This document shows positions 48,903-64,000 of a stretch of DNA of 64,000 bases, piece after piece. This stretch comes from a virus (taxonomy: Duplodnaviria > Caudoviricetes): the IMG/VR virus record IMGVR_UViG_3300021364_000005; one strand, 5' to 3'. Each line of letters opens with the position of its first letter. Position 1 is the stretch's first letter. Below the pieces are notes generated by a model. The model had not been told where the DNA came from. It worked only from the letters and a program-made list of their open reading frames with translations, and ran no database searches. The translations under genes and the position numbers were made by a program.

Positions 48903-48908
48903 CTAATT

Positions 48909-49241: not shown

Positions 49242-50082
49242 AGGATTTTTGATGATTGCTATGAATAATCCTAAAGTAGATTATTTGAAGCAAGCATACT
49301 ATTCAGCGAAACGTTTATATGAATTGACTGGTTTAAAATCAGCAGTAGTAACTGATGGCGAAGGATATATCAGACGAGTATTTGAGGACTATAAAAAATA
49401 TATAGATGTTATTAACAGCAGAACTATTACAATAGATAGAAAGAACACACAAAGACGTTACTATGATGGACATCATTCTTACAAAATGTTGCCATTTCAA
49501 AACGAATTTAGAGTTGCAGCATTTGATGTGTCACCATATGATGAAACATTATTGATAGACACAGATATATTATGGAATAACAAAGATATATTTAAAGTAT
49601 TTGATGATGCATATCTAAATGACTTTGCTTTATATAAAAAATGTGTGCCTTTAAATCCTTCAGTTGATTATGACGAGTTTATGACTATCAATCATGCTGG
49701 TATAGATTTTTATTGGGCAACTTGTGTTTACTTCAAAAAAACAGATAGAGTAAAGAAATATTTTGATACTGTAAAACATTTATATGATAACTGGGACTAT
49801 TTTTCTGTAGCGTTTGATTTACGTAGAAAGGTATTTAGAAATGATTACTTGTTTAGTCTTGCGTTACATTATATGAATGATTTTACAACTAATACATTTG
49901 CAAGCGAATTGCCTGGCACACTTTATTTTACAATCGATAAAGATATTTTGCTAGAAAATACACACAAGCAATGTTTTGATTTATCTCATGGTGATGTTTA
50001 TGCGTATACAGAAGTACAGAATGAAAACATACACGTAATGAATAAATTTAGTTTAGGAAGAGTCTATGACCAGAACGGATAA
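49234..50082 (+). CDS. GT-A fold glycosyltransferase (GT8-like)
   Basis: LLIDTDIL DxD motif, YWATCVYF, RNDYLFSLA. Confidence 0.6.
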   Translation: MTKGFLMIAMNNPKVDYLKQAYYSAKRLYELTGLKSAVVTDGEGYIRRVFEDYKKYIDVINSRTITIDRKNTQRRYYDGHHSYKMLPFQNEFRVAAFDVSPYDETLLIDTDILWNNKDIFKVFDDAYLNDFALYKKCVPLNPSVDYDEFMTINHAGIDFYWATCVYFKKTDRVKKYFDTVKHLYDNWDYFSVAFDLRRKVFRNDYLFSLALHYMNDFTTNTFASELPGTLYFTIDKDILLENTHKQCFDLSHGDVYAYTEVQNENIHVMNKFSLGRVYDQNG

Positions 50083-50782
50083 AGGTGTTTTAATATTCGC
50101 TCAAGGCGAGCAATATATAAATTGCGCTACCACGCTTGCCCAGAGTATAAAGCGGTTTAGCAACATATCAGTATACATTGCTAGTGACTTTGAAAACGAC
50201 CTAGCAGTCAACAGCGAATGGAAGATAGAGAATAGATGCACTGCATATGATATATCACCTTTTGATAAAACATATGTGTTTGACGCTGACACAATATTAA
50301 CTACACCGTTGCCTGAACTTGTAAATGATTTAAGTTTTTCAATGTCTCCTGTTAATTACAATGGAGAATTAGTTTTACAAGATACAAAGCATAGGAAAGT
50401 ATTTTTAGAAAACAACTTACCTAATGTTTATACAGGATTTTATTATTTTGAAAAAAATGATAAAGTGCAACAGTTCTTTAACCTAGTTAAAGATATTACT
50501 TTAAATTGGCAAGAATATTATAAAGTTTTAAATCCTCAACCTAAACATTTAAGTATGGACGTAACATTTGCACTTGCTGTAAAATTAAGTGGCGTTGATT
50601 ACGGAGATTGTAATACACAGATTAATTTTATACACGGTAAGTTTTTTAATAATGATTACAAATTAGATTTATATGATGAAGTATATGTTGATTACTATAA
50701 ACAAAAGGGCGTTCTTCATTACGTAGAAAAGTCTCAATTTACAAAATATAAGGAGTGGTTAGATGAAATTTATTCCTCCTAA
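50066..50782 (+). CDS. GT-A fold glycosyltransferase, paralogue of the preceding gene
   Basis: SPFDKTYVFDADTIL, NVYTGFYYF, SMDVTFALA. Confidence 0.6.
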   Translation: MTRTDKGVLIFAQGEQYINCATTLAQSIKRFSNISVYIASDFENDLAVNSEWKIENRCTAYDISPFDKTYVFDADTILTTPLPELVNDLSFSMSPVNYNGELVLQDTKHRKVFLENNLPNVYTGFYYFEKNDKVQQFFNLVKDITLNWQEYYKVLNPQPKHLSMDVTFALAVKLSGVDYGDCNTQINFIHGKFFNNDYKLDLYDEVYVDYYKQKGVLHYVEKSQFTKYKEWLDEIYSS

Positions 50783-51272
50783 ATTTTACGTACAGTTTGA
50801 TCCTGTTTCAAAAGAAATAACAGGATGTTACAACGTACAACCATCAGATAATTTTATAGAAATTACTGAAGATGAATATGTTGTTTTTGCTCAAGATACA
50901 TCAGTTTTTAACAAAAAGATTGCAAAACTTAACGAAGACACAAAGACTTGGATACTTACAGATAAGATTGTTGAACAGGTTAAATATGAACCTGGAGTGT
51001 TTTTGCTTAATAAAAATGATAACGATGTAAAAGTTGTTAAAAAAGAAAGCGAATGGGAGTTTCATTTTCCAGAACATTTTCCAACAGGAGTAGGTGTAGT
51101 AATTGGATTAAGTAACACAAGAAATCCGTTTAAAATATTTAAGTCGTTTTATATTTGGTGTGATGGTACAAATCCAATTCGTAAATTTTTCACTACTGAA
51201 GAGGAAAAAGGCGAAGTATTTTTGTTTGCAAATAATATTTTTAAAGATGCAAGCTATGAGGTAGAAAAATGA
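50763..51272 (+). CDS. Hypothetical protein
   Basis: 169-aa ORF overlapping both neighbours within the operon. Confidence 0.6.
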   Translation: MKFIPPKFYVQFDPVSKEITGCYNVQPSDNFIEITEDEYVVFAQDTSVFNKKIAKLNEDTKTWILTDKIVEQVKYEPGVFLLNKNDNDVKVVKKESEWEFHFPEHFPTGVGVVIGLSNTRNPFKIFKSFYIWCDGTNPIRKFFTTEEEKGEVFLFANNIFKDASYEVEK

Positions 51273-52885
51273 TTTTGAATATGTTTGACTATGATGTTAT
51301 ATACCTCAGCTATGACGAGCCTAATGCTGAAGAAAACTATTACGATCTCAAACTTAAAATACCATGGGCTAAACGTGTACACGGTGTAGAAGGATCAGAT
51401 GCTGCACATAAAGCCTGTGCAGAATTAAGTTCAACACAACGATTTATAACTATTGACGGTGATAATAAAGTTAGTAAAGATTTTCTATCAACTCATGTAG
51501 AAATTGTAGAAGGTGTTGATATTAAAAAGCACGTTATAAGCTGGAGCGGTTATAATACTATAAACGGACTAACATATGGTAACGGAGGCATTAAGTGTTG
51601 GGATAAAGATACTGTTCTGAATATGCGTACACATGAAAATGCAGATCCTGATAATATTCAAGCTCAGGTAGACTTTTGCTGGGATTTAGAATATATTCAA
51701 ATTGATAAGATAATGAGTACGGTTTATAATAATTCTACACCACAGCAAGCCTGGCGTGCTGGTTTCCGTGAAGGTGTAAAAATGTCATTGATTGATGGAG
51801 CCAGGGTTGACATAGAAACTTTTAAAAAAGTGCATTGGAAAAATTTGCATAGGCTTTATGTTTGGCTAATGGTAGGTGCAGATGTTGAAAACGGCTTGTG
51901 GGCAATATACGGTGCTAGAGAAGGTTTGTACAAAACTATGTGTACAGATTGGGATTATGTAAATGTGCGTGACTTTGAATATTTAAATAACCTTTGGAAA
52001 GAAAAAATACAAACTGAAGATGATTTACTAGAAGCGTGTATAGATTACGGAGAACGTATTGTTGCAGAACTTGAACTTCCTATCGATAGTAATCCATTGG
52101 CACCTGATCAAAGTAAGTTTTTTAAAACTGTTTATAAAAGTCCTCCTAGACAAAGCCATCACTATATTGAATGGCAAGAAGCTCCTATTAGGCAAACAAA
52201 CGAATATGATATTTTTATGCTTACATACAATGAACCAAACGGAGATGAAAATTTCGAAAAGTTAAAAAGCAGATTTCCTAGAGCGCAACGTGTTCATGGT
52301 ATAAAAGGAATACATAATGCACACAAACAAGCTGCAAAAATATGTAGAACAAATATGATGTGGATAGTTGACGGTGATGCAGTAATAGCAGATGATTTTA
52401 ACTTTGATTATGTTGTAGAGAATAATGATAAGGATGCAGTTCATGTTTGGCGTAGTAAAAATCCTGTTAACGGATTAGAGTATGGATACGGCGGAGTAAA
52501 ACTCTTGCCTACAAAAGAAACTAAAATTATGCGTACAGATACTACTGACATGACTACTAGTATAAGCAGCAAATTTAAAAAGATGGATCAAGTAAGTAAC
52601 ATCACAGCATTTAACACAGATCCATTTACTACATGGCGTAGTGCATTTAGAGAGTGTTGTAAACTTGGAAGTAAAGTTATTGAAAGACAAAATGATGCTG
52701 AAACGCAAAATAGGTTAGATGTTTGGACAACTTATGTCAATGAAGATGCGCCGTTTGCTGAATATGCACTAGCAGGCGCAAGAGCTGGTAAACAGTACGG
52801 TGCTACAAATAAAAACAACGAAATGCGGCTAAGACAAATTAATGATTTTGATTGGCTGTTGGAGAAATTTAATGAGTCAGAATAA
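51269..52885 (+). CDS. Tandem two-domain GT-A-like glycosyltransferase
   Basis: Duplicated YD(V/I)..L.Y.EPN..EN...LK...P.A.RVHG..G...AHK and DGD motifs; both halves end W..FRE..K. Confidence 0.6.
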   Translation: MILNMFDYDVIYLSYDEPNAEENYYDLKLKIPWAKRVHGVEGSDAAHKACAELSSTQRFITIDGDNKVSKDFLSTHVEIVEGVDIKKHVISWSGYNTINGLTYGNGGIKCWDKDTVLNMRTHENADPDNIQAQVDFCWDLEYIQIDKIMSTVYNNSTPQQAWRAGFREGVKMSLIDGARVDIETFKKVHWKNLHRLYVWLMVGADVENGLWAIYGAREGLYKTMCTDWDYVNVRDFEYLNNLWKEKIQTEDDLLEACIDYGERIVAELELPIDSNPLAPDQSKFFKTVYKSPPRQSHHYIEWQEAPIRQTNEYDIFMLTYNEPNGDENFEKLKSRFPRAQRVHGIKGIHNAHKQAAKICRTNMMWIVDGDAVIADDFNFDYVVENNDKDAVHVWRSKNPVNGLEYGYGGVKLLPTKETKIMRTDTTDMTTSISSKFKKMDQVSNITAFNTDPFTTWRSAFRECCKLGSKVIERQNDAETQNRLDVWTTYVNEDAPFAEYALAGARAGKQYGATNKNNEMRLRQINDFDWLLEKFNESE

Positions 52886-53873
52886 AGAATTCTTACACGG
52901 ACTACAAGACTACTTTGACTATAAAGAAGATCAGCGTAGTAAAGATTTTATAAAAAGTATATTAGATATTTGCTATTCTCAAAATCCGAAAAATGTTTTT
53001 TGTGATACTTTTATCAAAAAACATATAATGGAAAATGATAATGCTAAAGATATTCTTTTAAATGATGTTAGTAAGATTTTGTATGCTAACGATGTAAGAG
53101 AACAGATGGTAAATTCTTTCCTGCCAAGAGATTTAGCATTTGTATATGGTAGTAACGATTTTGAAAGAGCATTAGTGTTTTGGGCTTTAGAGCAAATAGA
53201 AATTTCTACTGAAACAAAACTTACTAGATATATTTTAGATTATCTTAAAAAAGATGGAGATCCGAATATTATTAGCGATGCATTTAGTAGAAGTCAAATG
53301 CGTAGCAAAATATGGCTGGCACAAGAGCTTGCAAGGATTGGCGGAAGCAGCACATTTAAAAATATAGTTTTGTTAGCAGGGTGGTATGGACAATTTGTAG
53401 AAATTTTAACAACACAGTTTCTGTTTGAAAAATGTAGAATAATAGAATTAGATAAAGATGCTTGTTTACAAAGTGATTTTAATTTTAATCTTAATAGACT
53501 AGAAAATTATAAAGTAAAGAGTATTAACGAAGACATAAACAATCTTACATTACATACTTCAGGTTACGAATGGAATATTGAAAATTTTAAAACTGGACAA
53601 AGTTATACAGAAAAGTTTAGTCCTGATTTAATTATTAATACAAGCTCAGAACACATGGATACAGAATGGTACAATCAAATAAGATTTAAGCAGTGGGATA
53701 AAAAACCTATTGTTGCAATACAAAGTAATAACTTTTTTGACATCGAAGATCATGTAAATTGTGTACACAGTATCGATCATATGAAGAAAATTTACCCAAT
53801 GGAAAATATATTGTTTGAAGGTGAGCTACAGCTAAAAGGATATAAGCGTGTCATGCTTATTGGGAGACCATAA
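52872..53873 (+). CDS. Class I SAM-dependent methyltransferase-like protein
   Basis: SKIWL, VLLAGWYG, IELD, LIINTSSEHM, QSNN motifs. Likely ATG 52872. Confidence 0.55.
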   Translation: MSQNKEFLHGLQDYFDYKEDQRSKDFIKSILDICYSQNPKNVFCDTFIKKHIMENDNAKDILLNDVSKILYANDVREQMVNSFLPRDLAFVYGSNDFERALVFWALEQIEISTETKLTRYILDYLKKDGDPNIISDAFSRSQMRSKIWLAQELARIGGSSTFKNIVLLAGWYGQFVEILTTQFLFEKCRIIELDKDACLQSDFNFNLNRLENYKVKSINEDINNLTLHTSGYEWNIENFKTGQSYTEKFSPDLIINTSSEHMDTEWYNQIRFKQWDKKPIVAIQSNNFFDIEDHVNCVHSIDHMKKIYPMENILFEGELQLKGYKRVMLIGRP

Positions 53874-54100
53874 TGAATTTAGAAGATTTTTCAGTCAGAG
53901 AATTACAAAGAGAAAGTGCCCGTGCGCTAAGTACAATGCAGGCTACAAATAATAATATTTGGCAATTTAATAAACAGGCACATCATAATAGTTGGAACTG
54001 GTATAAAGCAGTTATTGAATGGTATGTTGGTCAATACGGAGATTTGCCAAGTAAGGTTGGCCCAGGAAAAGATGTAAAGTTAGTATCTGATGAAATTTGA
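53873..54100 (+). CDS. Small hypothetical protein
   Basis: 75-aa ORF translationally coupled (TAATG). Confidence 0.6.
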   Translation: MNLEDFSVRELQRESARALSTMQATNNNIWQFNKQAHHNSWNWYKAVIEWYVGQYGDLPSKVGPGKDVKLVSDEI

Positions 54101-54440
54101 TAAAACATTTAAGTTGTACTTGATAAAAGGCCAAAGGGTTGATTTAAGTATTAAAATATCTGAATCTATGGTTGTTGGATATAGATTTAGGATAAAAGAG
54201 TTTGAAAATATTATAAAAGGTTGGGAAAACGGATTTGAAGGTGATACTTCTGGAGGATATGTTTTTATAGAATACAAAAAATATGGACCACGACCAGAAC
54301 GTAGATACGATCCATATGTGCGGTTTAGTATTAGCAACAATGGACTTACTAATCATCACAGGGTAACATATGATGATATGTATGACCTTACCAAAGAATG
54401 GAATCACCAAAAAACAAACAAAATGTATTGGGACGTATAA
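54090..54440 (+). CDS. Hypothetical protein
   Basis: 116-aa ORF overlapping both neighbours. Confidence 0.5.
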   Translation: MKFDKTFKLYLIKGQRVDLSIKISESMVVGYRFRIKEFENIIKGWENGFEGDTSGGYVFIEYKKYGPRPERRYDPYVRFSISNNGLTNHHRVTYDDMYDLTKEWNHQKTNKMYWDV

Positions 54441-55522
54441 TGTATAGATACGAGGATATAAAGGAAGTACATTTAGAAGTTACACAACGCTGCCAAGCGG
54501 CGTGTCCTATGTGTGACCGAAATATGAATGGCGGCGCTGATAATCCTCATATCACTAATGCAGAATTGTCTTATAAAGATTGTGTTAACATATTTAAACC
54601 TGCCTTTATAAAACAGTTAAAGACAATGTATATGTGTGGTAACTTAGGAGATCCTATTGTTGCAAAAGATACATTAGAAATATTCAAATATTTTAGAGAA
54701 CACAATCCTAATATGTGGTTGAGCATGAATACAAACGCAGGAGCAAAGGATGAACAGTGGTGGCGTGACCTGGCGCAAACTTTTGGTCGTATGGGCGCAG
54801 TTATCTTTAGTGTTGACGGGCTTAGTGATACTAATCACATTTATAGACAAAATGTTGTTTGGGATAATGTAGAACGTAATATGAAAGCGTTTATCAATGC
54901 AGGCGGCAGAGCTCGTTGGGACTTTTTAATTTTTGGACATAACGAGCATCAAGTCGACGAAGCCGAAAAACTTGCAAATGAATGGGGCTGCGAAAAATTT
55001 ATTAAAAAGAAAACCGGTAGATTTATTACAGTTAAAAGCGAAGCAAAAGAACAGCACCAAGCAACAAACAGAAAAGGCGAGGATACTGCTACTCTTGTAA
55101 AGCCTAAGAAAAAAGAAAATGTAAATCTTGCACTTTTAAAACAAAAAGAAATTGAAAAAACATATGGCAGTATGAAAGACTACTATAACCAATGTTCTAT
55201 AAAATGTAAAGTTGCTGAACAAGGTAGTATTTTTGTAACAGCAGAAGGACTACTTATGCCCTGTTGTTGGACTGCCGGGCGTATGTACAAATGGTGGCAT
55301 CCAGATCCTAAAGTAGAGCAGGTATGGGATTTTATAGATGCAGCTGGAGGTAAAGAAGGTATAAGCATTATAGACAACGACATTGAAGATGTAGTTGGCG
55401 GAAAACTTATAAGCTCTATAACTGAAAGCTGGAATAAAAATAGTTTAGATGAAGGCAAGTTGGGAGTTTGTGCGCAAAAATGTGGAACAGAATTTGATCC
55501 ATTTGCGGAGCAATTTAAGTGA
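54440..55522 (+). CDS. Radical SAM/SPASM-twitch protein (type A)
   Basis: CQAACPMC, CGNLGDP, TNAG, FSVDG, C-terminal LMPCCW...CAQKC. Start at the TAATG overlap, 54440. Confidence 0.88.
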   Translation: MYRYEDIKEVHLEVTQRCQAACPMCDRNMNGGADNPHITNAELSYKDCVNIFKPAFIKQLKTMYMCGNLGDPIVAKDTLEIFKYFREHNPNMWLSMNTNAGAKDEQWWRDLAQTFGRMGAVIFSVDGLSDTNHIYRQNVVWDNVERNMKAFINAGGRARWDFLIFGHNEHQVDEAEKLANEWGCEKFIKKKTGRFITVKSEAKEQHQATNRKGEDTATLVKPKKKENVNLALLKQKEIEKTYGSMKDYYNQCSIKCKVAEQGSIFVTAEGLLMPCCWTAGRMYKWWHPDPKVEQVWDFIDAAGGKEGISIIDNDIEDVVGGKLISSITESWNKNSLDEGKLGVCAQKCGTEFDPFAEQFK

Positions 55523-56250
55523 TATTTCCTCCTACTAAAAAATTACATCTCGGACTGACTTATAAATGCACTCTTGCTTGCTTAGAATGTTGTAGAACTA
55601 ATACTCGTAGGGATCAAATTCCACATATAACAGAAGAGTCTCATTTAAAGTGGGAGCAGTATAAAGATCTTTTACAAAGACAGTATAAGCATATTGAAAT
55701 GTGTGGTAATTGGGGAGACCCGATTTATTATCCTGATTTAATTCAATTAGTAAATTATATACACGAAGTCCAAGATGATTGTTACATAAGTCTGCATACA
55801 AACGGAAGTTATGTTAAGCCTAATACATGGCAAAGGTTAGCAGAAGCAATGTCAAAAAAAGATGAACTAATTTTTAGTTTAGACGGCACAAAGGATACTA
55901 ACCACAAATACAGGATCAACAGTGATTGGAAAAGTATTGCTGCTGGCGTGAACACAGTTTTTAATTATAAACACAGACCTTTGTTAACACAAAAAACTCT
56001 TTTATTTTCATATGTAGAACAAGATATGAAAAATGTTATACATCAAGCTATGAATATGGGATTTGATCGTATACGTTTTGATTATCCTATTACATCAGAA
56101 AAAACCGCAGATTTAAAACCTACTCGCACGGTTGAGGAAAATATTTTAGAAATGTCTAAATATGTTACCCCAACAAGGATCAGAAGATTAGGCGCTTCCT
56201 TTCCTGTTGTTTATGTTTACTTTAGGAGTGAAAATGTCTTTAAAGATTGA
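55519..56250 (+). CDS. Radical SAM core protein lacking the auxiliary domain
   Basis: CTLACLEC, CGNWGDP, HTNGS, FSLDG. Confidence 0.8.
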   Translation: MIFPPTKKLHLGLTYKCTLACLECCRTNTRRDQIPHITEESHLKWEQYKDLLQRQYKHIEMCGNWGDPIYYPDLIQLVNYIHEVQDDCYISLHTNGSYVKPNTWQRLAEAMSKKDELIFSLDGTKDTNHKYRINSDWKSIAAGVNTVFNYKHRPLLTQKTLLFSYVEQDMKNVIHQAMNMGFDRIRFDYPITSEKTADLKPTRTVEENILEMSKYVTPTRIRRLGASFPVVYVYFRSENVFKD

Positions 56251-56515
56251 TCCCGCTTGTATCAAACACCAAGGTTATTTTCTAGAATTAGATGGAACTT
56301 ATCTTCCGTGTTGCTGGTTGTTGACTGACTGGAAAGCAATAGACGAGCTGAAAGAACTTTATGGTGAAGATTGGGATAAACTTAAAATACAAAATAATTC
56401 TCCTGAAGAAATTGAAAAGCTGTGGCAGAAAATTGTAGATACTTGGTATGACAAACCTATAAGTAGGTGTGCAATTATGTGTCCTAAAAAAGGTAGGTTT
56501 GCTGAATATGAATAG
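56234..56515 (+). CDS. Stand-alone SPASM/twitch-like Fe-S domain
   Basis: C...DGTYLPCCW...CAIMC; AGGAG RBS at 56224-56228 before ATG 56234. Confidence 0.7.
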   Translation: MSLKIDPACIKHQGYFLELDGTYLPCCWLLTDWKAIDELKELYGEDWDKLKIQNNSPEEIEKLWQKIVDTWYDKPISRCAIMCPKKGRFAEYE

Positions 56516-57773
56516 ACTACCTTGCCACCAACCTTATAACACTATGGTATTTTTTAGTGCAACTAATGATATTAGTTGGTGTTGTAAGATGCAACCTACC
56601 ACTATAGATCCAACAACCGACGATTGGTTTTACAATAACAGGTATTTAAATTCTGTAAGATCAACTTTACAAGCAGGACATTTTCCAGATGCTTGCCACC
56701 GTTGTGCAATAGCCGAAAAAAACAATCAAAAAAGTTGGCGTCATTTAGAAGGCCAAGTTCCTCAGAAATATGCTGACGGATACTCACAAGAGCGCAAATC
56801 AGTGTTTCAGCGTATAGAGTTTTATTTTGATAATACTTGTGATTGTGCTTGTTTGTATTGTGGAGCGGGATTAAGCAGTAAATGGCAGCAAGAATATAAA
56901 AATGTTGACGAGCAAATATTTAAAGAAATTGCACCTTTCTTTAAGGTAGATGAGTTATATAAAACTGAAGAAAAAAATATTATCAAGCTATTGGACTATC
57001 TTGTATATCTAGGTAAAGAATTGCCTAAGCACGAAACAATGGTTGATTTTGCTTTTTTAGGAGGAGAACCTTTTTTAAGTCCACAAATTAAAAATGGAGA
57101 GTTTCAAAAATTTGTAGAAGCTTTTTACACTCATGCTCCTGCTGATTTCCGTATGGTTTTAAGTTTTGTAACAAATTGTAACAATCCTGATAAGGTCTGG
57201 GAACGTAATTGGAAAACTTTAGAAACTTTACGTAACAAGTATAATATAGGTTTAAACATTGCACTTAGTTTAGAAAGTATAGGCAAAGTTACTGAATATG
57301 TTAGATATGGCTCTGATTGGAATACTGTAGATAAAAACATAGACAAATGGCTTAGTAAAGATTGGACACAAGTACATTTTAACAATGCATACAATGCATT
57401 TGCGATTGAAACTTTGCCCGAGTTTGTTGAATACATGGTAAACAAAGGAAAGCAACACAACAGACAAATAGAAGTTAGTCCTAATGTTGTTTATGATCCT
57501 ATTGAACTTAGTCCTATGGTGTTGCCAAAAACATTTGACAAATATTTCGATAAAGCAATAGATCTTGTTTATCAAAACAAACAGCATTTTGTTGACAGTA
57601 ATTATAATGGTTACAGTGCATTGATCAAAACTTTTCAAGAGCTAAAAGACAAATTAGGTACACATACAGATAAAAAAGATAAAATGAACACATTTGTCCA
57701 GTATTCCAAGAAGTACCGCAATTTGGAATTAAATACAGTAGCCCCTAAAGTTGCAAAGTATTTAAATGAATGA
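56508..57773 (+). CDS. Radical SAM protein with N-terminal twitch-like domain (type B)
   Basis: N-terminal PC...WCC...CHRC, then CDCACLYC and GGEPF. Likely ATG 56508. Confidence 0.85.
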   Translation: MNRLPCHQPYNTMVFFSATNDISWCCKMQPTTIDPTTDDWFYNNRYLNSVRSTLQAGHFPDACHRCAIAEKNNQKSWRHLEGQVPQKYADGYSQERKSVFQRIEFYFDNTCDCACLYCGAGLSSKWQQEYKNVDEQIFKEIAPFFKVDELYKTEEKNIIKLLDYLVYLGKELPKHETMVDFAFLGGEPFLSPQIKNGEFQKFVEAFYTHAPADFRMVLSFVTNCNNPDKVWERNWKTLETLRNKYNIGLNIALSLESIGKVTEYVRYGSDWNTVDKNIDKWLSKDWTQVHFNNAYNAFAIETLPEFVEYMVNKGKQHNRQIEVSPNVVYDPIELSPMVLPKTFDKYFDKAIDLVYQNKQHFVDSNYNGYSALIKTFQELKDKLGTHTDKKDKMNTFVQYSKKYRNLELNTVAPKVAKYLNE

Positions 57774-58839
57774 ATATCTAAAACAACCTCATAAGATACA
57801 GTTTGAACTTAGTAGTATGTGTAATGCATTGTGTCTAGGTTGTGTTCGTACGGATACAAGAAACTTTAATCAGTCAAAGCCACTTATTCCTAAAAAACAA
57901 ATTGTAGAAGTTGATACATTTGTAAAGCTACTTTCAAGCGAAGAAATGTCTACAGTTAAAATACTAGAGTTTTGTGGAACTGTTGATGATCCTCTTATGC
58001 ATCCAGATTTTCTTACTCTACTTGAACGAGCATACGAAATAAATCCAAATTATAAAATAAACATTCATACAAATGCAAGTCTACGAAACGAAAATGATTT
58101 TGTAAAATTAGCACAAATTTTAAAGAAGTTTAAAGAACACGAACTATTGTTTAGTATTGATGGCATTGGAGAAACACATACTATATACAGACAGTTTACA
58201 AATTATGATAAAATAATTTCAAATGCAAAAGCATTTATAAATGAAGGCGGCAGGGCTGTATGGCAATTCTTAATTTTTCCTTGGAATGAACATCAAGTCG
58301 AGGAAGCAAAAGAAATAAGCAAAGAATTAGGATTTGCTGTATTTTTACGAAGACATGATAGATCTATTGCAACTGGGCTAGGTTTAGAAAAAATACAAGG
58401 TAAGAAAAGAAAAAATACTTTGTACGATATAGTTGAAGAACATTCCATGGAGCAACTTTTAGAAAGTTATGAAAATATTAACGAAGTAGAAATTGCTTGT
58501 AATAACCAAGAAAAAGGAATGTATTTTGTAAGTTTTGATAGTAAGTTATGGCCATGTTGTTTTATTCCTAACGGATTTTTACAACAGCAACCTCGCAAAG
58601 TAGAATATTTACAAAAAAGATTATATGATACTTACGGTAAAGATTTTAATGATCTAACAAAAAAGACTGTGAAAGAAATTGTTACCAATGACTTTTACAA
58701 AAATGATCTTGTAGAGAGCTGGGATAACCCTGTAGCTTTAGGAAAATGTGGCAAGATAACAAGATGTGCAGAAACTTGTAATGTTTATAAATTAAAAGCA
58801 TTGCCAATTGGTAAACCAAAGGTGTATAGTAATGTCTAA
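57766..58839 (+). CDS. Radical SAM/SPASM-twitch protein (type A)
   Basis: CNALCLGC, CGTVDDP, FSIDG, LWPCCF...CAETC. Confidence 0.88.
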   Translation: MNEYLKQPHKIQFELSSMCNALCLGCVRTDTRNFNQSKPLIPKKQIVEVDTFVKLLSSEEMSTVKILEFCGTVDDPLMHPDFLTLLERAYEINPNYKINIHTNASLRNENDFVKLAQILKKFKEHELLFSIDGIGETHTIYRQFTNYDKIISNAKAFINEGGRAVWQFLIFPWNEHQVEEAKEISKELGFAVFLRRHDRSIATGLGLEKIQGKKRKNTLYDIVEEHSMEQLLESYENINEVEIACNNQEKGMYFVSFDSKLWPCCFIPNGFLQQQPRKVEYLQKRLYDTYGKDFNDLTKKTVKEIVTNDFYKNDLVESWDNPVALGKCGKITRCAETCNVYKLKALPIGKPKVYSNV

Positions 58840-60154
58840 TACTTATTGTCCTATTCCTTGGATATTCCAAGCAGTTAGGAATAACGGAGATATAAGAGTT
58901 TGCTGTCAAGCAAATGTAACAAAGAATCAAGGAGTAGTAAGACACCCAGACGGAACTCCATATAACGCTGGGCGTGATAACATGGAAGAAGCACGTAATG
59001 CAGAGCTTATGAAAGAAATTCGTAAGAATATGATTGCTGGTAAATGGAGTGAAGAATGTGGCAGATGTATGAAAGAAGAAGCTAGTGGACTTAATAGTAG
59101 ACGTCAGTACGAATTAGAAAACTGGGATTATAGTTTTGAACAAGCTGTTTCTTCAACCGAGAAAGACGGCACTATAACAAATCCGCAACTACGTTACTAT
59201 GACTTACGATTTGGAAATATGTGTAATCTTGCTTGTAGAATGTGCGGACCTACTGACAGCCATACATGGTATGAACAATGGTTAGGATATCACGGCGGTG
59301 ACGGATATGACGATACTCACGGATATGTAAAACTACAAAAAAATGAAAAAGGTAGATTGTATACAAATGATTATGACTGGCATAGTAGCGAAACTTTTTG
59401 GGAACAAATAGAAAAAAACATTTCTAACATAGAACACGTTTACATGGCAGGCGGAGAGCCTATGATGATCGAACGTCATTATGAGTTTTTGCAAAAGTGT
59501 ATAGATGGCAATCATGCAAAAAATATTATTATAGAATATAATACCAACATGACAAATTTGCCTGATAGAGTTTTGGATATGTGGACACACTTTAAACAAG
59601 TGAGAGTTGGTGCAAGTATAGATGGTATGGGCGATGTTGTAGAATATCAGCGTTGGCCTTTAAAATGGAAAAGTGCATATCGTAATTTACAAAAATTAGA
59701 CGACTATGCATATAATAATAAAAATATAATTGCTTGGTTAGCGTTTACAGTTACAGCATATAATGTATGGCACGTACCAGAGTTTATGTGGTGGAAACTA
59801 AAAGAAAGTGGATTTAAGGCTATTAACAGCACAAAGAAACGTCCTATAATTACACATCATGTTGCACATGGACCAAAACGTGCAAATATAAAAATATTAG
59901 ATAAAAAAATGAAAGACCATTTAGAATATCATTATGCTAGATGGTCGGATAGATTTATTGATGATAAAGAACTTTCAATGGATGTAAAAAACAATGCTGC
60001 TTCTATTATGGAAAGTGTTTTAAAGTTTGCAAAGAGTGAAGACGCTTCAGATAAACTTCCTGAGTTTGTAAGGTTTACTAAGTACTTGGATAAGCAAAGA
60101 AATCAGTCTGTGGTAGATGTAGTACCACAATACGAGGAATTATTTAATGAGTGA
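58832..60154 (+). CDS. Radical SAM protein with N-terminal twitch-like domain (type B)
   Basis: YCPIPW...RVCC...CGRC, DLRFGNMCNLACRMC, AGGEP. Likely ATG 58832. Confidence 0.88.
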   Translation: MSNTYCPIPWIFQAVRNNGDIRVCCQANVTKNQGVVRHPDGTPYNAGRDNMEEARNAELMKEIRKNMIAGKWSEECGRCMKEEASGLNSRRQYELENWDYSFEQAVSSTEKDGTITNPQLRYYDLRFGNMCNLACRMCGPTDSHTWYEQWLGYHGGDGYDDTHGYVKLQKNEKGRLYTNDYDWHSSETFWEQIEKNISNIEHVYMAGGEPMMIERHYEFLQKCIDGNHAKNIIIEYNTNMTNLPDRVLDMWTHFKQVRVGASIDGMGDVVEYQRWPLKWKSAYRNLQKLDDYAYNNKNIIAWLAFTVTAYNVWHVPEFMWWKLKESGFKAINSTKKRPIITHHVAHGPKRANIKILDKKMKDHLEYHYARWSDRFIDDKELSMDVKNNAASIMESVLKFAKSEDASDKLPEFVRFTKYLDKQRNQSVVDVVPQYEELFNE

Positions 60155-61547
60155 GAAAGTTTCAGATACCTTTTGCATTTTGCCTTGGGTACATTTAAGT
60201 ACTAGACCTGATGGTAGTATGCGTGTGTGTTGTACTGCTAATGCAAGTTCGGTAGGAGCAACTAATGATAAAGAACACGGCGGCCAAGTTGGTGTATTAA
60301 AAACTGAAGATGGCAAGCCTAACAACTTGAACGTAAGTGACTTTCTTACAAGCTGGAATAGCACATATATGAAGAATGTGCGAAAGCAAATGTTAAATGG
60401 CGAAATGCCGCCTAGTTGCTTGAAGTGTTATAAAGAAGAAGCAGCTGGACATAACTCTAAACGTATGTGGGAAACTGCCTATTGGAGTAAGCGTGTTGAT
60501 GTAGATAAGCTAATTGAAAACACAGAAGACGATGGAAGTGTACCTCCTGAGCTTACATACATAGATTTAAGATTTGGAACAAAATGTCAGCTTGCTTGTG
60601 TGATGTGTTCTCCTCATGATAGCAGCGGATGGATACCAGACTATAAAAAAATATTTCCTGATGTGCAGAATGAAAGCCTAAAGGAAACTATGCAGTGGAA
60701 AGATAAAGGTAGCTATAACGGCAGTAGTTATAATTGGCATAAACAAAACCCTAAGTTCTGGGAACAATTTTATGCACAAATACCTTATATGCAACAGATA
60801 TATTTTGCAGGTGGTGAAAGTTTAATAATTGAAGAGCATTATGAAATATTGGAAGAATGTATCCGTCAAGGTTACGCAAAAGATTTGGAACTACGTTATA
60901 ACTCAAATGGCGTTGAGTGGAGAGATGATTTATTCGAATTATGGAAAGAGTTCAAACTTGTAAGATTCCATTATAGCGTTGACAGCATCGGGAACATGAA
61001 TGATTACATACGTTACCCTAGCAAGTGGGAACGTACAAGAGAAGTATTTCATATACTTGACACACAAACAAGCAACAACGTAGAAGTTACAGTTGCTTGT
61101 GCAGTACAAGCACTAAACATTTACTACATTCCAGATTTTATTAAATGGAAACTACAAGAAGGCTTTAGTAAAATTAATATGTGGCCATTTGGTGCAGGCG
61201 GCATTAATTACCACTTTGTGTACCATCCACCGCACCTTAATGTTAAAGTATTGCCTAAATGGTTTAAAGAAGAAGTGCGTAAAAAGTATGAAGAATTTAT
61301 TCCATGGTGGGAAGAAAATTGGGAACTAGGTGTACCTAGTTGGCATAAAGGTAAAGTTGATTACGACAAATGGCGTAGTGCAAGTTATGGTGTTGATCGT
61401 TTAATGGGAATGGTGAAATTTATGGAAAGTGAGGATTGGAGCAATCGTCTGCCTGAAACAAAAGAATTTTTAGAGTTATGTGATAAGCAGCGCGGTAATA
61501 GATTTGAAGATACGTTTCCGGAAATGAAAGGAATATTTGATGGATAA
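60147..61547 (+). CDS. Radical SAM protein with N-terminal twitch-like domain (type B)
   Basis: FCILPW...RVCC...CLKC, DLRFGTKCQLACVMC, AGGES. Confidence 0.88.
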   Translation: MSEKVSDTFCILPWVHLSTRPDGSMRVCCTANASSVGATNDKEHGGQVGVLKTEDGKPNNLNVSDFLTSWNSTYMKNVRKQMLNGEMPPSCLKCYKEEAAGHNSKRMWETAYWSKRVDVDKLIENTEDDGSVPPELTYIDLRFGTKCQLACVMCSPHDSSGWIPDYKKIFPDVQNESLKETMQWKDKGSYNGSSYNWHKQNPKFWEQFYAQIPYMQQIYFAGGESLIIEEHYEILEECIRQGYAKDLELRYNSNGVEWRDDLFELWKEFKLVRFHYSVDSIGNMNDYIRYPSKWERTREVFHILDTQTSNNVEVTVACAVQALNIYYIPDFIKWKLQEGFSKINMWPFGAGGINYHFVYHPPHLNVKVLPKWFKEEVRKKYEEFIPWWEENWELGVPSWHKGKVDYDKWRSASYGVDRLMGMVKFMESEDWSNRLPETKEFLELCDKQRGNRFEDTFPEMKGIFDG

Positions 61548-62367
61548 ATTGGAAAGACTTGAAACAGACCCTGTAATGAAAGTGCAAAATATTGTACCTG
61601 AAGAATACCATAGTGAATGGAAAAAAACTTGGGGAGATAGTTTTTCTGAAGAGAACTTTTTCGATCATGACGAATTAGAATGGCTTACAGATTTAATGTA
61701 CAAACAACATCACGCTAGGCGTGTAAAGAAAAATGGCACATTACATTACTTTGTCAATAATGAATTAATTAAAGAAAAGTTCTACGACAAAATAAAAGCA
61801 GCAGTTCCAGAACTTGACGATACTGAGTGGCACGGTAATTTTTTAATTACTGCTACACCGTACAACTTACACATTGACACAGCAGACGAAAAAGTTTATA
61901 ACGGCACAGTGCCAGGCAAACAAATTATTATACCTTTGTTTACTTGTTGGACTGGTAATAAAGACAAAGACGAGGATTGGTATCCAGAGTGTGGTACTGC
62001 TGTATTTAAAAACAGATTTTTAATGTACGGCACAAACTTTGCAAAAAGTGATAACGAATACGATACAAATGTATTTTATACGCAGCGCCAATATCAAGAC
62101 TTAGTTTGTTACGATAAGCAAGGCGAAAGAATGGATGTAGACTGGAACAAAGAATTTCCAGATGATTTGTACAAAAAGCATTTCGATCATTTTAAAAAGC
62201 GTTGGTTGGATGGATTTGAGTTTGAAGCAGTGCATAATTGGAAACGTGGTAATTTAATTGTATTTGATAGATGTCAAGCACACAGCGGTGTAAACTTTCA
62301 AAAATGCGGAGTTACACTAAAGGCAGGATTGTCCTTGATGACTACTACACGGAATAATAATGTTTAA
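61537..62367 (+). CDS. 2OG-Fe(II) oxygenase-like protein
   Basis: HxD (LHIDT), IIIPL strand and distal WKRGNLIVFDRCQAHSG. Confidence 0.55.
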   Translation: MMDKLERLETDPVMKVQNIVPEEYHSEWKKTWGDSFSEENFFDHDELEWLTDLMYKQHHARRVKKNGTLHYFVNNELIKEKFYDKIKAAVPELDDTEWHGNFLITATPYNLHIDTADEKVYNGTVPGKQIIIPLFTCWTGNKDKDEDWYPECGTAVFKNRFLMYGTNFAKSDNEYDTNVFYTQRQYQDLVCYDKQGERMDVDWNKEFPDDLYKKHFDHFKKRWLDGFEFEAVHNWKRGNLIVFDRCQAHSGVNFQKCGVTLKAGLSLMTTTRNNNV

Positions 62368-64000
62368 ATTAGAAAATATAGAACTTGTACATTTCGAAGT
62401 GACAGGTAAATGTAATGCTAGATGTCCTATGTGTAGTAGACATACTAAAGACGGATTCTTACAGCCACATATGCCTCAGACTCATTTATCTAAAGAAATA
62501 TTCTACAAGTTTTTTACACACGAATTTTGTACTCAACTAAAACACGTTTATCTAAGTGGAGTATACGGTGATCCGTGTATGCATCCCGATCTTGTAGAAT
62601 TTTGTGCCCATTTAGCAAAGTATGATATTGAAGTTGCTATCGACACAAATGGTGGATATCGCAAAGCTGAGTTTTGGTCAGCACTTGCAAAGACGGGTGT
62701 ACAAGTTAATTTTGCTATAGATGGATTAGAGGATACAAATCATTTATATCGTAGAGGTGTGAGATGGGATGTTGTAGATCGAAATATTAGAGCTTACTCA
62801 GAAGCAGGCGGCAATGCACAATGGAACTTTATTGTTTTCGAACATAACGAGCACCAAGTTGACGAAGCAAGACGGTTTGCTGATGAGCTAGGTTTTGATT
62901 TTAGAACTAAAATTACACAAAAGTTTAGTAGCTCCAAAACTTGGGATGTATACGAAGATGGTAAAAAGTTATACGAACTAACACCACCGGAAAATGAAGA
63001 ATATAGACATCCACACATTTCAGAACGTCCGTATGCTGCAACACAAATTTTTGAATTTGATTTAAAATCTCCACGTTGGAATGAACTTGATGATGTTGAA
63101 ATTGACTGTAAAGCATTACAGCGTAAAGAAATATTTTTAAGTTATGAAGGTTATGTATTGCCTTGTTGCTACGTAGGTACGCTTTATAATGATAGCCCTG
63201 GTACATATCAAATTAACCAAAACTTAGATTTGACTAAATTTAAAATTGCTGATTTAGATTTAGAAACTATAGTAAACAACATGAATGTTATTGCTGATAC
63301 ATGGAATACTAAGAAAGTTTGTGACGGAAAATTAATCACCTGTGCAAGAACTTGCAAAAAGAATAATGCACTTAAAACTCAGTTTATTAAACAGCCAAGC
63401 AAGAGCTTTTGTGTTCTGCCATGGATTCATGCACAGACAAAACCCAATGGGCAGATTAAGCCTTGTTGTAGATTTGATCATAGACACAAAGCGTATAAAA
63501 ATGAGGACGGCTCGTATATTTGGGATAGATTTAATATTAACAAAGGAATGACATTTAAAGAAGCAGTTGAATCTCCAGAATGGCAAGAGATAAGAGACGC
63601 TATGATGGAAAACATAGAAGTGCCAGGCTGTCGTAAATGTTATGCAGAACAGTTAAGAAATCTAGAAGATAAAAAACGTGCAAGAAGTATGCGTGTAAAA
63701 GAAAATTGGTTCTGGAATAAAAACAACCAGTTTGAATTAGAACCACCTAATGAATTAGGAAAATTACGATACATAGAACTAGCATTAGGAAATTTTTGCA
63801 ATTTGAAATGTAGAACTTGCACCGCTGATCTAAGTAGCACATGGACAGAAGATGAAAATACACTTAGTGAATTTTATGATGACAGACACAAATATAAACA
63901 CATTGTTCATGTCGATCAAAATTGGAAAGTTGAAGATTTTGAATATGTAGAAGAAATAAAATTTACTGGTGGTGAGCCTATGCTGCATCCAAACTTTATT
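62360..64000 (+). CDS. Fused tandem radical SAM protein (type A + type B), partial at right edge
   Basis: Not in the ORF track. Manual translation is open from ATG 62360 to the window end: CNARCPMC...LPCCY...CARTC, then FCVLPW...KPCC...CRKC...GNFCNLKCRTC...TGGEP. Confidence 0.85.
   Translation, partial: MFKLENIELVHFEVTGKCNARCPMCSRHTKDGFLQPHMPQTHLSKEIFYKFFTHEFCTQLKHVYLSGVYGDPCMHPDLVEFCAHLAKYDIEVAIDTNGGYRKAEFWSALAKTGVQVNFAIDGLEDTNHLYRRGVRWDVVDRNIRAYSEAGGNAQWNFIVFEHNEHQVDEARRFADELGFDFRTKITQKFSSSKTWDVYEDGKKLYELTPPENEEYRHPHISERPYAATQIFEFDLKSPRWNELDDVEIDCKALQRKEIFLSYEGYVLPCCYVGTLYNDSPGTYQINQNLDLTKFKIADLDLETIVNNMNVIADTWNTKKVCDGKLITCARTCKKNNALKTQFIKQPSKSFCVLPWIHAQTKPNGQIKPCCRFDHRHKAYKNEDGSYIWDRFNINKGMTFKEAVESPEWQEIRDAMMENIEVPGCRKCYAEQLRNLEDKKRARSMRVKENWFWNKNNQFELEPPNELGKLRYIELALGNFCNLKCRTCTADLSSTWTEDENTLSEFYDDRHKYKHIVHVDQNWKVEDFEYVEEIKFTGGEPMLHPNFI

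What the first reader, a model, noticed from the sequence alone, without database searches (positions are those of the whole stretch)
54440..64000. Tandem array of eight radical SAM domains in one phage locus
Seen: intact CxxxCxxC motifs CQAACPMC, CTLACLEC, CDCACLYC, CNALCLGC, CNLACRMC, CQLACVMC, CNARCPMC and CNLKCRTC, plus a ninth at 1-839; the array continues off the window. The paralogues are divergent, not recent copies. Known: each needs [4Fe-4S] clusters and SAM and is O2-sensitive, a heavy iron cost. Inference: substrate-specialised paralogues acting in series, or a diversifying arms-race family.
Basis: partly seen in the sequence, partly recalled or inferred. Interest (0 to 1): 0.75.

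Follow-up and report, generated by a model that had tools for sequence, protein, structure and literature searches.

The report
Phage radical-SAM array, likely glycan-tailoring
An uncultured marine jumbo phage carries a tightly packed operon of old, individually conserved iron-sulfur "radical SAM" enzymes from families with no tested member, placed behind its tail-fibre and sugar-transferase genes, where they most likely edit a sugar structure by unknown chemistry; such arrays have been noted before in T4-like phages.

Summary
All eight CxxxCxxC motifs are in frame at 54.4-64.0 kb, and a ninth lies at 3-839(-). They sit in seven co-directional genes.

There are two architectures:
- Five domains have the radical-SAM core first and a Cys-rich twitch-like tail ("type A").
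- Four belong to NCBIfam NF033640, where the twitch domain comes first ("type B").
- One type A gene is split into a core plus a 93-aa twitch mini-gene. One A gene and one B gene are fused.
- The only non-radical-SAM gene in the array is a 2OG/Fe(II) oxygenase.

The copies are old (19-45% identity) and orthologues are under purifying selection (dN/dS 0.05-0.49). Gene content varies widely: in 80 related viral contigs, 45% of genes within about 10 kb of the array carry the motif, in 147 clusters.

The window is a T4-like jumbo phage. Two GT8-like glycosyltransferases lie 4 kb upstream in the same gene string.

Bacterial NF033640 genes also come in tandem, several in O-antigen-type loci, and one is fused to the Wzt exporter. 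My best reading is a glycan-tailoring island (about 0.45). The substrate and the reaction are untested.

Multi-radical-SAM T4-like phages were reported in 2010, 2017 and 2020. Earlier unchecked notes from this scan report the same kind of array in at least 25 other genomes.

The parts
54398..55522 (+). A1: type A radical SAM (core first, Cys-rich twitch/SPASM-like C-terminal domain). The probable start is the ATG at 54440.
   Evidence: PF04055 E 7e-10. Motif at residue 32 of the ORF. Orthologues in 75 of 80 related loci align from ORF residue 15. The closest 24 used for dN/dS are 77-81% identical, dN/dS 0.094.
55519..56250 (+). A2 core: type A radical SAM core without its own C-terminal domain (243 aa).
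   Evidence: PF04055 E 1.7e-8. Orthologues in L019, L020, L021 and L069 are also 239-241-aa core-only ORFs.
56234..56515 (+). A2c: stand-alone twitch-like mini-gene (93 aa from the ATG at 56234; the ORF opens at 56207). It is the detached C-terminal domain of A2, in another frame, with AGGAG five bases upstream.
   Evidence: Cys pattern C-x16-CC-x51-CxxxC. Separate 96-aa ORFs at 42-44% identity follow the A2 orthologue in four loci. The frame break is covered without indels by contigs of three runs.
56469..57773 (+). B1: type B (N-terminal twitch) radical SAM, the most divergent copy.
   Evidence: NF033640 174 bits against a cut-off of 170. Long branch within the B clan. No orthologue at 40% identity or more in the 80 loci.
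57766..58839 (+). A3: type A radical SAM.
   Evidence: Motif at residue 19. Matches the NF033640 core region at E 3e-18 and Fer4_12 weakly. Orthologues at 42-64% identity, dN/dS 0.34.
58808..60154 (+). B2: type B radical SAM.
   Evidence: NF033640 382 bits. Orthologue cluster in 32 of 80 loci. dN/dS 0.24.
60147..61547 (+). B3: type B radical SAM, the conserved anchor gene of the island.
   Evidence: NF033640 423 bits. 337 IMG/VR stretches encode a relative, the best 80 at 82-89% identity, and 2994 proteins in metagenomes have E<=1e-5. dN/dS 0.045. AF2 model pLDDT 86.
61537..62367 (+). X: 2OG/Fe(II)-dependent oxygenase, the only non-radical-SAM gene inside the array.
   Evidence: H112-x-D114, H249 and K262 are invariant in 18 homologues. 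AF2 pLDDT 88.6. All top Foldseek PDB hits are 2OG oxygenases, including EvdO2, proline hydroxylase H11, SnoN and HygX.
62360..63397 (+). A4: type A radical-SAM domain, the N-terminal half of the fusion ORF 62360-64000+.
   Evidence: PF04055 residues 13-173 and motif at residue 18. Separate 341-355-aa genes in L018 and L057.
63398..64000 (+). B4: type B domain (twitch plus start of the core) fused in frame to A4. It is cut by the window end.
   Evidence: NF033640 model position 1 starts at ORF residue 347, 193.5 bits. There is no stop or start codon at the junction. A contig of an independent run covers 62908-63960 with 0 differences.
3..839 (-). A0: ninth radical SAM (type A). It lies apart from the array beside the portal gene and is cut by the window start.
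   Evidence: PF04055 E 7e-8. Motif at residue 18. Groups with type A in the tree.
808..1386 (-). Gene directly upstream of A0, with a weak match to a PHROG annotated as alpha-2,3-sialyltransferase.
   Evidence: phrog_30607 E 3e-30 and phrog_4603 E 6e-5.
54090..54440 (+). 116-aa Cys-free protein that abuts A1.
   Evidence: Found directly upstream of the A1 orthologue in 11 of 80 loci at 37-60% identity. No family match.
49231..50082 (+). GT8/glycogenin-like glycosyltransferase, first of a tandem pair, in the same co-directional gene string.
   Evidence: Profile hit to glycogenin-1 at E 3e-4. Invariant D110-x-D112. Atlas neighbours are nucleotide-diphospho-sugar transferase or GT8 clusters.
50066..50782 (+). 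Second GT8-like glycosyltransferase, a paralogue of the first.
   Evidence: Same 30%-identity cluster as 49231-50082, 39 members in 23 loci.
51269..53873 (+). Two conserved proteins of unknown function (51269-52885 and 52842-53873). In relatives they form one protein of about 1000-1130 aa with an internal repeat. They lie between the glycosyltransferases and the array.
   Evidence: 62-66% identity to the N-terminal part and 34-53% to the C-terminal part of single ORFs in L001, L005, L061 and L077. No Pfam family at gathering score.
47856..47863 (+). TATAAATA, a T4-type late-promoter-like box 25 nt upstream of the first gene (47888) of the uninterrupted + strand string that runs into the array.
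   Evidence: Only 3 copies in the window against 11.7 expected. One overlaps the end of the portal gene, one lies inside the listed ORF 6799-7812, and this one sits just upstream of a gene start. That it acts as a promoter is inference.

Best explanation
The locus is the first 10 kb of a larger tailoring-enzyme island in a marine T4-like jumbo phage. It encodes nine radical-SAM domains of the SPASM/twitch branch. Each is predicted to hold the SAM-cleaving [4Fe-4S] cluster plus an auxiliary cluster in a twitch-type domain. That domain sits behind the core in type A and in front of it in type B (NF033640).

Shown here: the domains are intact, old, individually conserved, co-directional and mostly overlapping, and they are sometimes split or fused with their neighbours. 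A 2OG/Fe(II) oxygenase is interleaved. Two GT8-like glycosyltransferases lie upstream in the same gene string, behind the tail-fibre genes.

Inferred: the enzymes act one after another, or as complexes, on one scaffold. That scaffold is most likely a sugar structure. The GT8 enzymes would lay down sugars on a phage fibre protein or on a host envelope glycan. Each radical-SAM enzyme would then abstract a hydrogen atom to carry out one specific edit, such as epimerisation, oxidation, dehydration or C-C bond formation. The oxygenase and other accessory enzymes would add further groups. Swapping cassettes between strains would give strain-specific decoration.
For: - The motifs and family matches are intact.
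- Cores of type A and type B fall on opposite sides of supported branches (99/63 and 98/76).
- The N-terminal domain of B is homologous to the C-terminal domain of A (hhalign 94%, E 1e-7).
- Orthologues are under purifying selection.
- 625 of 652 motif genes share one strand, and 74% of junctions between adjacent motif genes overlap.
- A4::B4 is an in-frame fusion here but two overlapping genes in relatives. An independent contig confirms the fused junction.

Sugar link in the window and its relatives:
- Two GT8-like glycosyltransferases lie in the same string.
- In the complete relative G001, the array is followed by GDP-mannose 4,6-dehydratase, a DegT aminotransferase, an epimerase and a ManC-like gene.
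- Accessory genes across related islands include an FkbM methyltransferase, a carbamoyltransferase and a GDP-mannose dehydratase.
- The nearest solved fold to X is EvdO2 of an oligosaccharide antibiotic pathway.

Sugar link outside the clade:
- In a bacterial chromosome, four tandem NF033640 genes lie in a Wzm/Wzt locus with rmlC, rmlD, a TylF-type methyltransferase and a WbsX glycosyltransferase. One copy is fused to Wzt.
- Two further bacterial loci pair the family with glycosyltransferases and ABC-2 exporter genes.
- The five-gene radical-SAM module of Campylobacter phage CP220 sits with two NDP-sugar transferases and a PAP2 phosphatase.
- Pelagimyophage host-recognition islands hold GT8 genes and radical-SAM cassettes (PMC7029224).
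Against: - No member of either family has a tested activity, and no substrate is shown.
- Fold comparison does not separate sugar or nucleotide enzymes from peptide enzymes. BlsE (Z 11.5), viperin (Z 11.2) and MoaA tie with SkfB (Z 11.3), SuiB, CteB and anSME.
- Of nine bacterial contexts read, three are bare 3-4-gene arrays with no informative sugar genes beside them. A fourth lies in a nif cluster. A fifth (Microcystis) has only a sulfotransferase and phosphorylase genes nearby.
- Related islands also hold Asp/Asn beta-hydroxylases, TauD-type oxygenases and a tryptophan halogenase. These are more typical of protein or small-molecule chemistry.
- The Wzt fusion occurs in one lineage only.
- Gene neighbourhood is circumstantial evidence.
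Confidence: 0.45

Rival explanations
1. The enzymes modify proteins. Candidates are the phage's own tail-fibre or other virion proteins, or a ribosomal peptide. The edits could be thioether or C-C crosslinks or epimerised residues, which would harden or diversify the host-recognition apparatus.
For: - The island lies within the structural and tail-fibre region.
- Peptide-modifying SPASM/twitch enzymes (SkfB, CteB, SuiB, anSME, AlbA) are among the top fold matches.
- Asp/Asn beta-hydroxylases and a tryptophan halogenase occur in related islands.
- Iyer et al. proposed tail-collar and collagen-like proteins as substrates of the tandem dioxygenase arrays of cyanophages (PMC2938197).
Against: - None of the window's type A proteins has room for an N-terminal recognition domain, because the motif sits at residues 17-32. 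The N-terminal domain of type B is a twitch domain.
- No conserved precursor-like small ORF is present. The 116-aa upstream ORF is Cys-free and occurs in only 11 of 80 loci.
- Small ORFs next to bacterial arrays are unrelated to each other.
- The clearest bacterial contexts are polysaccharide loci.
Confidence: 0.25
2. The enzymes act on nucleotides or on phage DNA. They would make modified bases or nucleotide analogues for anti-restriction or counter-defence.
For: - Viperin, MoaA and BlsE, all nucleotide or nucleoside enzymes, are tied top fold matches.
- The commonest accessory family in related islands carries an SGGxDS PP-loop motif like QueC-type enzymes. It has 83 members in 50 loci, mostly flanked by motif genes.
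- A thymidylate synthase occurs in one related island.
Against: - The array is strung together with tail-fibre and glycosyltransferase genes, not with replication genes.
- Gene content differs widely between close relatives, which is hard to reconcile with one genome-wide DNA chemistry.
- None of the copies approaches the QueE, viperin or MoaA cut-offs.
Confidence: 0.15
3. The genes are auxiliary metabolic genes that boost ordinary host metabolism, such as cofactor or anaerobic metabolism, during infection. This was first suggested for the Campylobacter phages.
For: Timms et al. proposed a fitness benefit at low oxygen for the 11-12 radical-SAM genes of CP220 and CPt10 (PMC2853527). Relatives also encode Fe-S assembly proteins (PMC5332604).
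Against: - No copy matches a housekeeping radical-SAM equivalog above its cut-off.
- Nearest clusters of the type B family in the protein atlas are 94-100% viral. The family passed its cut-off in 3 of 401 sampled Pseudomonadota genomes, one of them a probable mis-binned phage contig.
- An O2-dependent oxygenase sits in the operon.
- The DNA occurs in seawater, marsh and estuary metagenomes.
Confidence: 0.05

Closest known systems
NCBIfam NF033640, N_Twi_rSAM (twitch domain-containing radical SAM protein)
   Same: Four domains (56469-57773, 58808-60154, 60147-61547 and 63398-64000+) pass the family cut-off. They have the N-terminal Cys-rich twitch domain followed by CxxxCxxC and GGE.
   Different: The family is only catalogued and, as far as I could find, has no tested member. 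The five type A domains are not members (25.6-66 bits against 170). Here the family is mixed with type A enzymes, a split gene and a fused gene.
Radical-SAM modules of T4-like phages: Campylobacter phages CP220 and CPt10 (Timms 2010, PMC2853527), a Tara T4-like viral genome with 12 radical-SAM genes (Nishimura 2017, PMC5332604), and radical-SAM cassettes in the pelagimyophage host-recognition cluster (Zaragoza-Solas 2020, PMC7029224)
   Same: All are T4-like phages with many radical-SAM genes in an interchangeable module near structural genes. Glycosyltransferases lie nearby and the phages encode Fe-S assembly genes.
   Different: Those papers note the genes in passing and give no function. 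A1 is only 23% identical to a CP220 protein. The present clade is a jumbo phage of about 380 kb whose portal is nearest to Atu_ph07 and PA5oct. Its array is larger and mixes two architectures.
SPASM/twitch radical-SAM enzymes with solved structures: BlsE, BtrN-type and MoaA (small molecules); SkfB, CteB, SuiB and anSME (peptides)
   Same: The partial TIM-barrel core with CxxxCxxC and an auxiliary-cluster domain is shared. Best Z scores are 11.5-10.2.
   Different: Sequence identity is only 9-16% and the Foldseek TM-score normalised to the query is about 0.3. In type B the auxiliary domain is N-terminal, not C-terminal. No RiPP recognition element is present.
Tandem 2OG-Fe(II) dioxygenase arrays of cyanophages, for example 10 in Syn9 (Iyer et al. 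2010, PMC2938197)
   Same: This is a hypervariable run of paralogous oxidative tailoring enzymes next to tail-collar and fibre genes of marine T4-like phages. A 2OG oxygenase is also present here.
   Different: Here the expanded family is radical SAM, which is O2-labile, rather than O2-dependent dioxygenases.
ABC-transporter-dependent O-antigen loci (Wzm/Wzt with the Wzt C-terminal carbohydrate-binding domain)
   Same: Bacterial NF033640 genes lie inside such a locus, and one is fused to Wzt-Wzt_C.
   Different: I found no Wzm/Wzt in the window (searches cover most but not all of its ORFs). The fusion is known from one lineage only.

Membership tests
Radical SAM superfamily (PF04055) | CxxxCxxC motif that binds the SAM-cleaving [4Fe-4S] cluster | tested here: met
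   Present in all nine domains, in frame.
Radical SAM superfamily (PF04055) | Profile match over the core at or above the gathering score | tested here: met
   Six ORFs score 33-73 bits against a cut-off of 29.5. The ORFs at 56469 and 57766 do not reach Pfam but match the core of NF033640 at E 5e-51 and 3e-18.
Radical SAM superfamily (PF04055) | Reductive cleavage of SAM to a 5'-deoxyadenosyl radical | not testable with these tools
   This needs anaerobic reconstitution and a SAM-cleavage assay.
NF033640 N_Twi_rSAM | Whole-protein score at or above 170 bits | tested here: met
   B1 174, B2 382, B3 423 and B4 (partial) 193.5 bits. The type A proteins score 25.6-66 bits and are not members.
NF033640 N_Twi_rSAM | Cys-rich twitch-type domain on the N-terminal side of the core | tested here: met
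   C10, C28, C91 and C94 (B3 numbering) are invariant in 48 sequences. The domain is homologous to the C-terminal domain of type A (hhalign 94%, E 1e-7).
SPASM/twitch subgroup | The auxiliary Fe-S cluster is actually bound by the extra cysteines | not testable with these tools
   Only the Cys patterns are seen: C-x17/18-CC...CxxC in type B and C-x18-CC...CxxxC in type A.
RiPP maturase system (sactipeptide or ranthipeptide type) | A precursor peptide gene next to the enzyme | tested here: not met
   The genes abut or overlap. The only small upstream ORFs are a 116-aa Cys-free protein found in 11 of 80 loci and an unannotated frame of about 72 codons. Small ORFs beside bacterial arrays are unrelated to each other.
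RiPP maturase system (sactipeptide or ranthipeptide type) | An N-terminal RiPP recognition element | tested here: inconclusive
   Type A starts directly with the motif at residues 17-32, and the type B N-terminus is a twitch domain. Many peptide-modifying enzymes lack this element, so its absence does not exclude a peptide substrate.
2OG/Fe(II)-dependent oxygenase (for 61537-62367) | HxD...H iron triad, a basic 2OG-binding residue and the double-stranded beta-helix fold | tested here: met
   H112, D114, H249 and K262 are invariant. All top PDB matches are 2OG oxygenases. There is no Pfam hit and no PDB sequence hit, so this is a remote member.
GT8 glycosyltransferase (for 49231-50782) | GT-A fold with a DxD motif and a profile match to GT8 | tested here: inconclusive
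   The profile hits glycogenin at E 3e-4 over the first 100 positions only. D110-x-D112 is invariant. Atlas neighbours are named GT8 or nucleotide-diphospho-sugar transferase. There is no Pfam hit at gathering score.

The most novel reading that the evidence does not exclude
The island writes a strain-specific, radical-edited glycan onto the phage's fibres or the infected cell's surface. N-terminal-twitch radical-SAM enzymes would then be a new class of polymer-level glycan editors. They would work in aerobic marine cells, supported by phage-encoded Fe-S assembly. The split, fused and permuted forms in this array would record how the N-twitch architecture arose, by a twitch domain passing from one tandem gene to the next.
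Probability: 0.3. Interest if true: 0.8.

Novelty: new member of a known kind. Interest (0 to 1): 0.55.

Why it matters
These families are abundant. The anchor protein alone has 2994 relatives at E<=1e-5 in public metagenomes, and the nearest protein clusters are almost all viral. Yet no member has a known reaction.

If the enzymes edit sugars on virions or on host envelopes, they add a chemistry not yet described for how phages vary or hide their recognition surfaces. They would also show that O2-labile enzymes are used on a large scale by viruses of oxic seawater.

The locus offers compact test cases: one conserved anchor enzyme, a natural two-piece enzyme and a natural two-domain fusion.

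Tried and rejected
- **Cultured phages:** megablast of the array against cultured phage genomes found nothing. tblastn found only 22-25% identical proteins in seven records from five phage types: Ralstonia RsoM2USA, Vibrio K566/K567, Campylobacter CP220 and F379, and Pelagibacter Mosig.
- **Own genome:** no whole genome is held for the window.
- **Genome collection:** the 48-sequence type B alignment was too diverse for a pattern scan. The single-protein scan returned one 13-kb contig binned as a Neisseriaceae MAG. It looks like a mis-binned phage fragment and says nothing about the host.
- **Fold searches of B3** (Foldseek on PDB and Swiss-Prot models, VIA-align wide) gave only tied generic radical-SAM matches and could not separate substrate classes.
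- **Gene X:** a profile search against PDB sequences found nothing, so the fold had to be predicted.
- **X and the PP-loop family:** I tested whether X and the commonest accessory family are related. They are not (hhalign 0.1%). That family carries an SGGxDS PP-loop motif instead.
- **Precursor peptides:** small ORFs upstream of bacterial arrays were examined as possible precursors. They are unrelated to each other, and one looks like a transposase fragment.
- **Wzt fusion:** a search for more Wzt::radical-SAM fusions found only the same lineage.
- **Expression:** no RNA holder is listed for the array or for B3, so nothing can be said about expression.
- **Strain variants:** in run X12 only short pieces were listed past about 56.7 kb, and a few 21-letter joints were seen. 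I do not count these as evidence of cassette replacement.
- **Late promoter:** TATAAATA is depleted in the window (3 against 11.7 expected) and in the loci (54 against about 250 expected). Only 12 of the 54 lie within 60 nt of a gene start, so late expression of the array is not shown.
- **Complex prediction:** I did not run a job on A2 and A2c, because halves of a split gene tend to pass by likeness to solved structures.

Full report
**What is there.** The window is a piece of a T4-like phage. It holds a gp20-type portal (PF07230, E 5e-107), a T4 baseplate protein, a Rad50-like gp46, a SegE nuclease, a tail-collar fibre, a Peptidase_G2 fibre chaperone domain and a 5186-aa ORF. The portal is about 50% identical to those of the jumbo phages Atu_ph07, Phosso and PA5oct. 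The closest long relative is a 383-kb IMG/VR contig rated complete by CheckV.

From 47888 to the window end every gene is on the + strand, and the genes abut or overlap. Pfam and NCBIfam profiles support them.

**Anatomy.** The nine domains fall into two architectures.
- **Type A** covers A0, A1, A2, A3 and A4. The motif lies at residues 17-32. Where the tail is present, a Cys-rich domain follows (C-x18-CC...CxxxC).
- **Type B** covers B1 to B4. The Cys-rich domain comes first (C-x17-CC...CxxC), the motif lies at residues 124-147, and GGE lies 50-70 residues further on. These four pass the cut-off of NCBIfam NF033640, "twitch domain-containing radical SAM protein".

The N-terminal domain of B and the C-terminal domain of A are homologous (hhalign 94%, E 1e-7). 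In a maximum-likelihood tree of cores, the 18 type A rows form one side of a branch (99/63). Of the 43 type B rows, 41 form another (98/76). A third class with a CxY/FxCxYC motif occurs only in relatives.

Three details stand out.
- **A2 is a two-piece enzyme.** It is a 243-aa core followed, in another frame, by a 93-aa twitch mini-gene with its own AGGAG and ATG. The same split is kept in four relatives at only 42-54% identity. Contigs of three other runs cover it without indels. It is therefore a real split gene and not a sequencing error.
- **A4 and B4 are fused in frame.** There is no stop or start codon at the junction. In relatives they are two genes that overlap by a few bases. An independent contig covers the fused junction with no differences.
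- **The one non-radical-SAM gene is an oxygenase.** Gene 61537-62367 has an invariant HxD...H...K signature. Its confident model matches only 2OG/Fe(II) oxygenases, with EvdO2 first.

**Age and selection.** Core identities are 28-45% within type A, 30-43% within type B and 19-38% between types. Against their own orthologues the genes show the following dN/dS values:

| Gene | dN/dS |
|---|---|
| B3 | 0.045 |
| A1 | 0.094 |
| B2 | 0.24 |
| X | 0.26 |
| A4B4 | 0.29 |
| A3 | 0.34 |
| A2 | 0.49 |

dS is saturated at 1.3 or more, so the ratios are rough, but all point to constraint.

**Population picture.**
- 337 viral stretches encode a relative of B3, the best 80 at 82-89% identity. In metagenome proteins, 2994 match at E<=1e-5.
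- In 80 loci covering up to 10 kb either side of B3, 652 of 1448 genes (45%) carry the motif. They fall into 147 clusters at 50% identity.
- B3 is in all 80 loci by construction, A1 in 75 and B2 in 32. The rest are patchy.
- 625 of the 652 lie on the same strand as B3. Of the 364 junctions between adjacent motif genes, 74% overlap.
- The complete relative has 14 radical-SAM domains, an IscU and two A-type Fe-S carriers.
- Long stretches of the window's array recur without a difference in contigs of a 2024 marine study and with at most one in a marsh study. Copies 2-3% diverged occur in an estuary study.

In short, variation comes from swapping cassettes while each gene stays conserved.

**What it does.** Structure does not decide the question. 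The B3 model (pLDDT 86) matches BlsE, SkfB, viperin, SuiB, CteB, anSME and MoaA at tied Z of 10-11.5. Context is more telling.

In the window, two GT8/glycogenin-like glycosyltransferases lie 4 kb upstream in the same gene string. In the complete relative the array is followed by GDP-mannose 4,6-dehydratase, a DegT aminotransferase, an epimerase and a ManC-like gene. Accessory genes of related islands fall into two groups:
- Sugar-type: an FkbM methyltransferase, a carbamoyltransferase and a GDP-mannose dehydratase.
- Others: Asp/Asn beta-hydroxylases, TauD-type oxygenases, nitroreductases, PP-loop enzymes, an AMP-binding enzyme and a halogenase.

Outside phages the type B family is rare. It passed its cut-off in 3 of 401 sampled Pseudomonadota genomes, one of them a probable mis-binned phage contig. 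The nearest atlas clusters are almost all viral. Where the family does occur in bacteria, it again comes in tandem sets of two to four. The nine contexts I read were:
- A chromosome where four copies sit between rmlC/rmlD-Wzm and a TylF methyltransferase plus a WbsX glycosyltransferase. The first copy is fused to Wzt and its carbohydrate-binding domain.
- A locus with ABC-2 exporter genes plus GT1 and GT2.
- A locus with GT2 and an epimerase at the edge of a prophage.
- A locus with DegT and a carbamoyltransferase a few genes away.
- Three bare arrays, one locus in a nif cluster and one Microcystis locus, all uninformative.

The five-gene radical-SAM module of Campylobacter phage CP220 lies behind baseplate genes, with two NDP-sugar transferases and a PAP2 phosphatase.

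I therefore rank the readings as follows:

| Reading | Confidence |
|---|---|
| Glycan tailoring | about 0.45 |
| Protein or fibre modification | 0.25 |
| Nucleotide or DNA chemistry | 0.15 |
| Host-metabolism boosting | 0.05 |
| Something else | remainder |

Whether the glycan would sit on a fibre protein or on the host envelope is open.

**Comparison with what is known.**
- Timms et al. (2010) counted 11 and 12 radical-SAM proteins in CP220 and CPt10 and called five of them an interchangeable module.
- Nishimura et al. (2017) reported a T4-like marine genome with 12 radical-SAM genes and Fe-S assembly genes.
- Zaragoza-Solas et al. (2020) noted radical-SAM cassettes and GT8 genes in the hypervariable host-recognition cluster of pelagimyophages.
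- Iyer et al. (2010) described the analogous tandem dioxygenase arrays of cyanophages.
- NF033640 already catalogues the N-terminal-twitch architecture.
- Unchecked earlier notes of this scan describe the same kind of array in at least 25 other genomes, and those listed reach the same tentative reading. That is not independent evidence.

So this is a new member of a known but uncharacterised kind. What this window adds is the mixed A/B array with a conserved split gene and a fusion, the embedded O2-dependent oxygenase, and the bacterial Wzt fusion as a link to polysaccharide export.

**Verdict.** Interest is moderate. The chemistry is unknown and the family is very abundant, but the phenomenon has been noted repeatedly.

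Noticed in passing
window 26318-41878 (+): A single 5186-aa ORF lies just upstream of the tail-collar fibre genes. It may correspond to the giant VrlC-type protein that bounds the host-recognition cluster in marine T4-like phages (PMC7029224).
   Followed up: no
window 1657-1664(-), 6897-6904(+), 47856-47863(+); loci L001-L080: TATAAATA, the T4 late-promoter box, is strongly depleted: 3 against 11.7 expected in the window, and 54 against about 250 expected in 1.47 Mb of related loci. Two of the window's three copies lie just upstream of plausible gene starts. The third overlaps the end of the portal gene, 270 nt from the next start.
   Followed up: partly
G001:C1:16117-16780 and 324451-324753 (383-kb relative): The complete relative encodes an IscU (NifU_N, E 7e-54) next to an A-type Fe-S carrier, plus a second carrier elsewhere. 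This fits a phage that supplies clusters for its own 14 radical-SAM domains.
   Followed up: partly
L095 (G103:C19) 8579-11143 (-): A bacterial 854-aa protein fuses the O-antigen exporter ATPase Wzt and its carbohydrate-binding domain to an N-terminal-twitch radical SAM. Three more tandem copies follow it. The fusion was seen again only in one JGI protein cluster (P0239).
   Followed up: yes
L085 (CANEUJ010000032.1, 13.5 kb): A contig binned into a 'Neisseriaceae bacterium' MAG carries the B3 and B2 orthologues at 75% identity. It looks like a mis-binned fragment of this phage clade and not a host clue.
   Followed up: partly
loci L015 12559-15042, L025 11391-13826, L101 3855-7940: Further multi-domain forms exist. 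Relatives have 811-827-aa double radical-SAM ORFs, and Microcystis has a 1361-aa SPASM/radical-SAM/aminotransferase protein next to a sulfotransferase.
   Followed up: no
related loci, e.g. L007 13740-14858, L008 14302-15459, L001 12704-13630: A third radical-SAM class with a CxY/FxCxYC motif shows no BLAST similarity to the window's copies. It is common in relatives (clusters of 33-36 loci) but absent from the window's 10 kb.
   Followed up: partly
window 53874-54092 (+): An unannotated frame of about 72 codons fills the only apparent gap between 52842-53873 and 54090-54440. The whole string 47888-64000 therefore has essentially no intergenic space.
   Followed up: no
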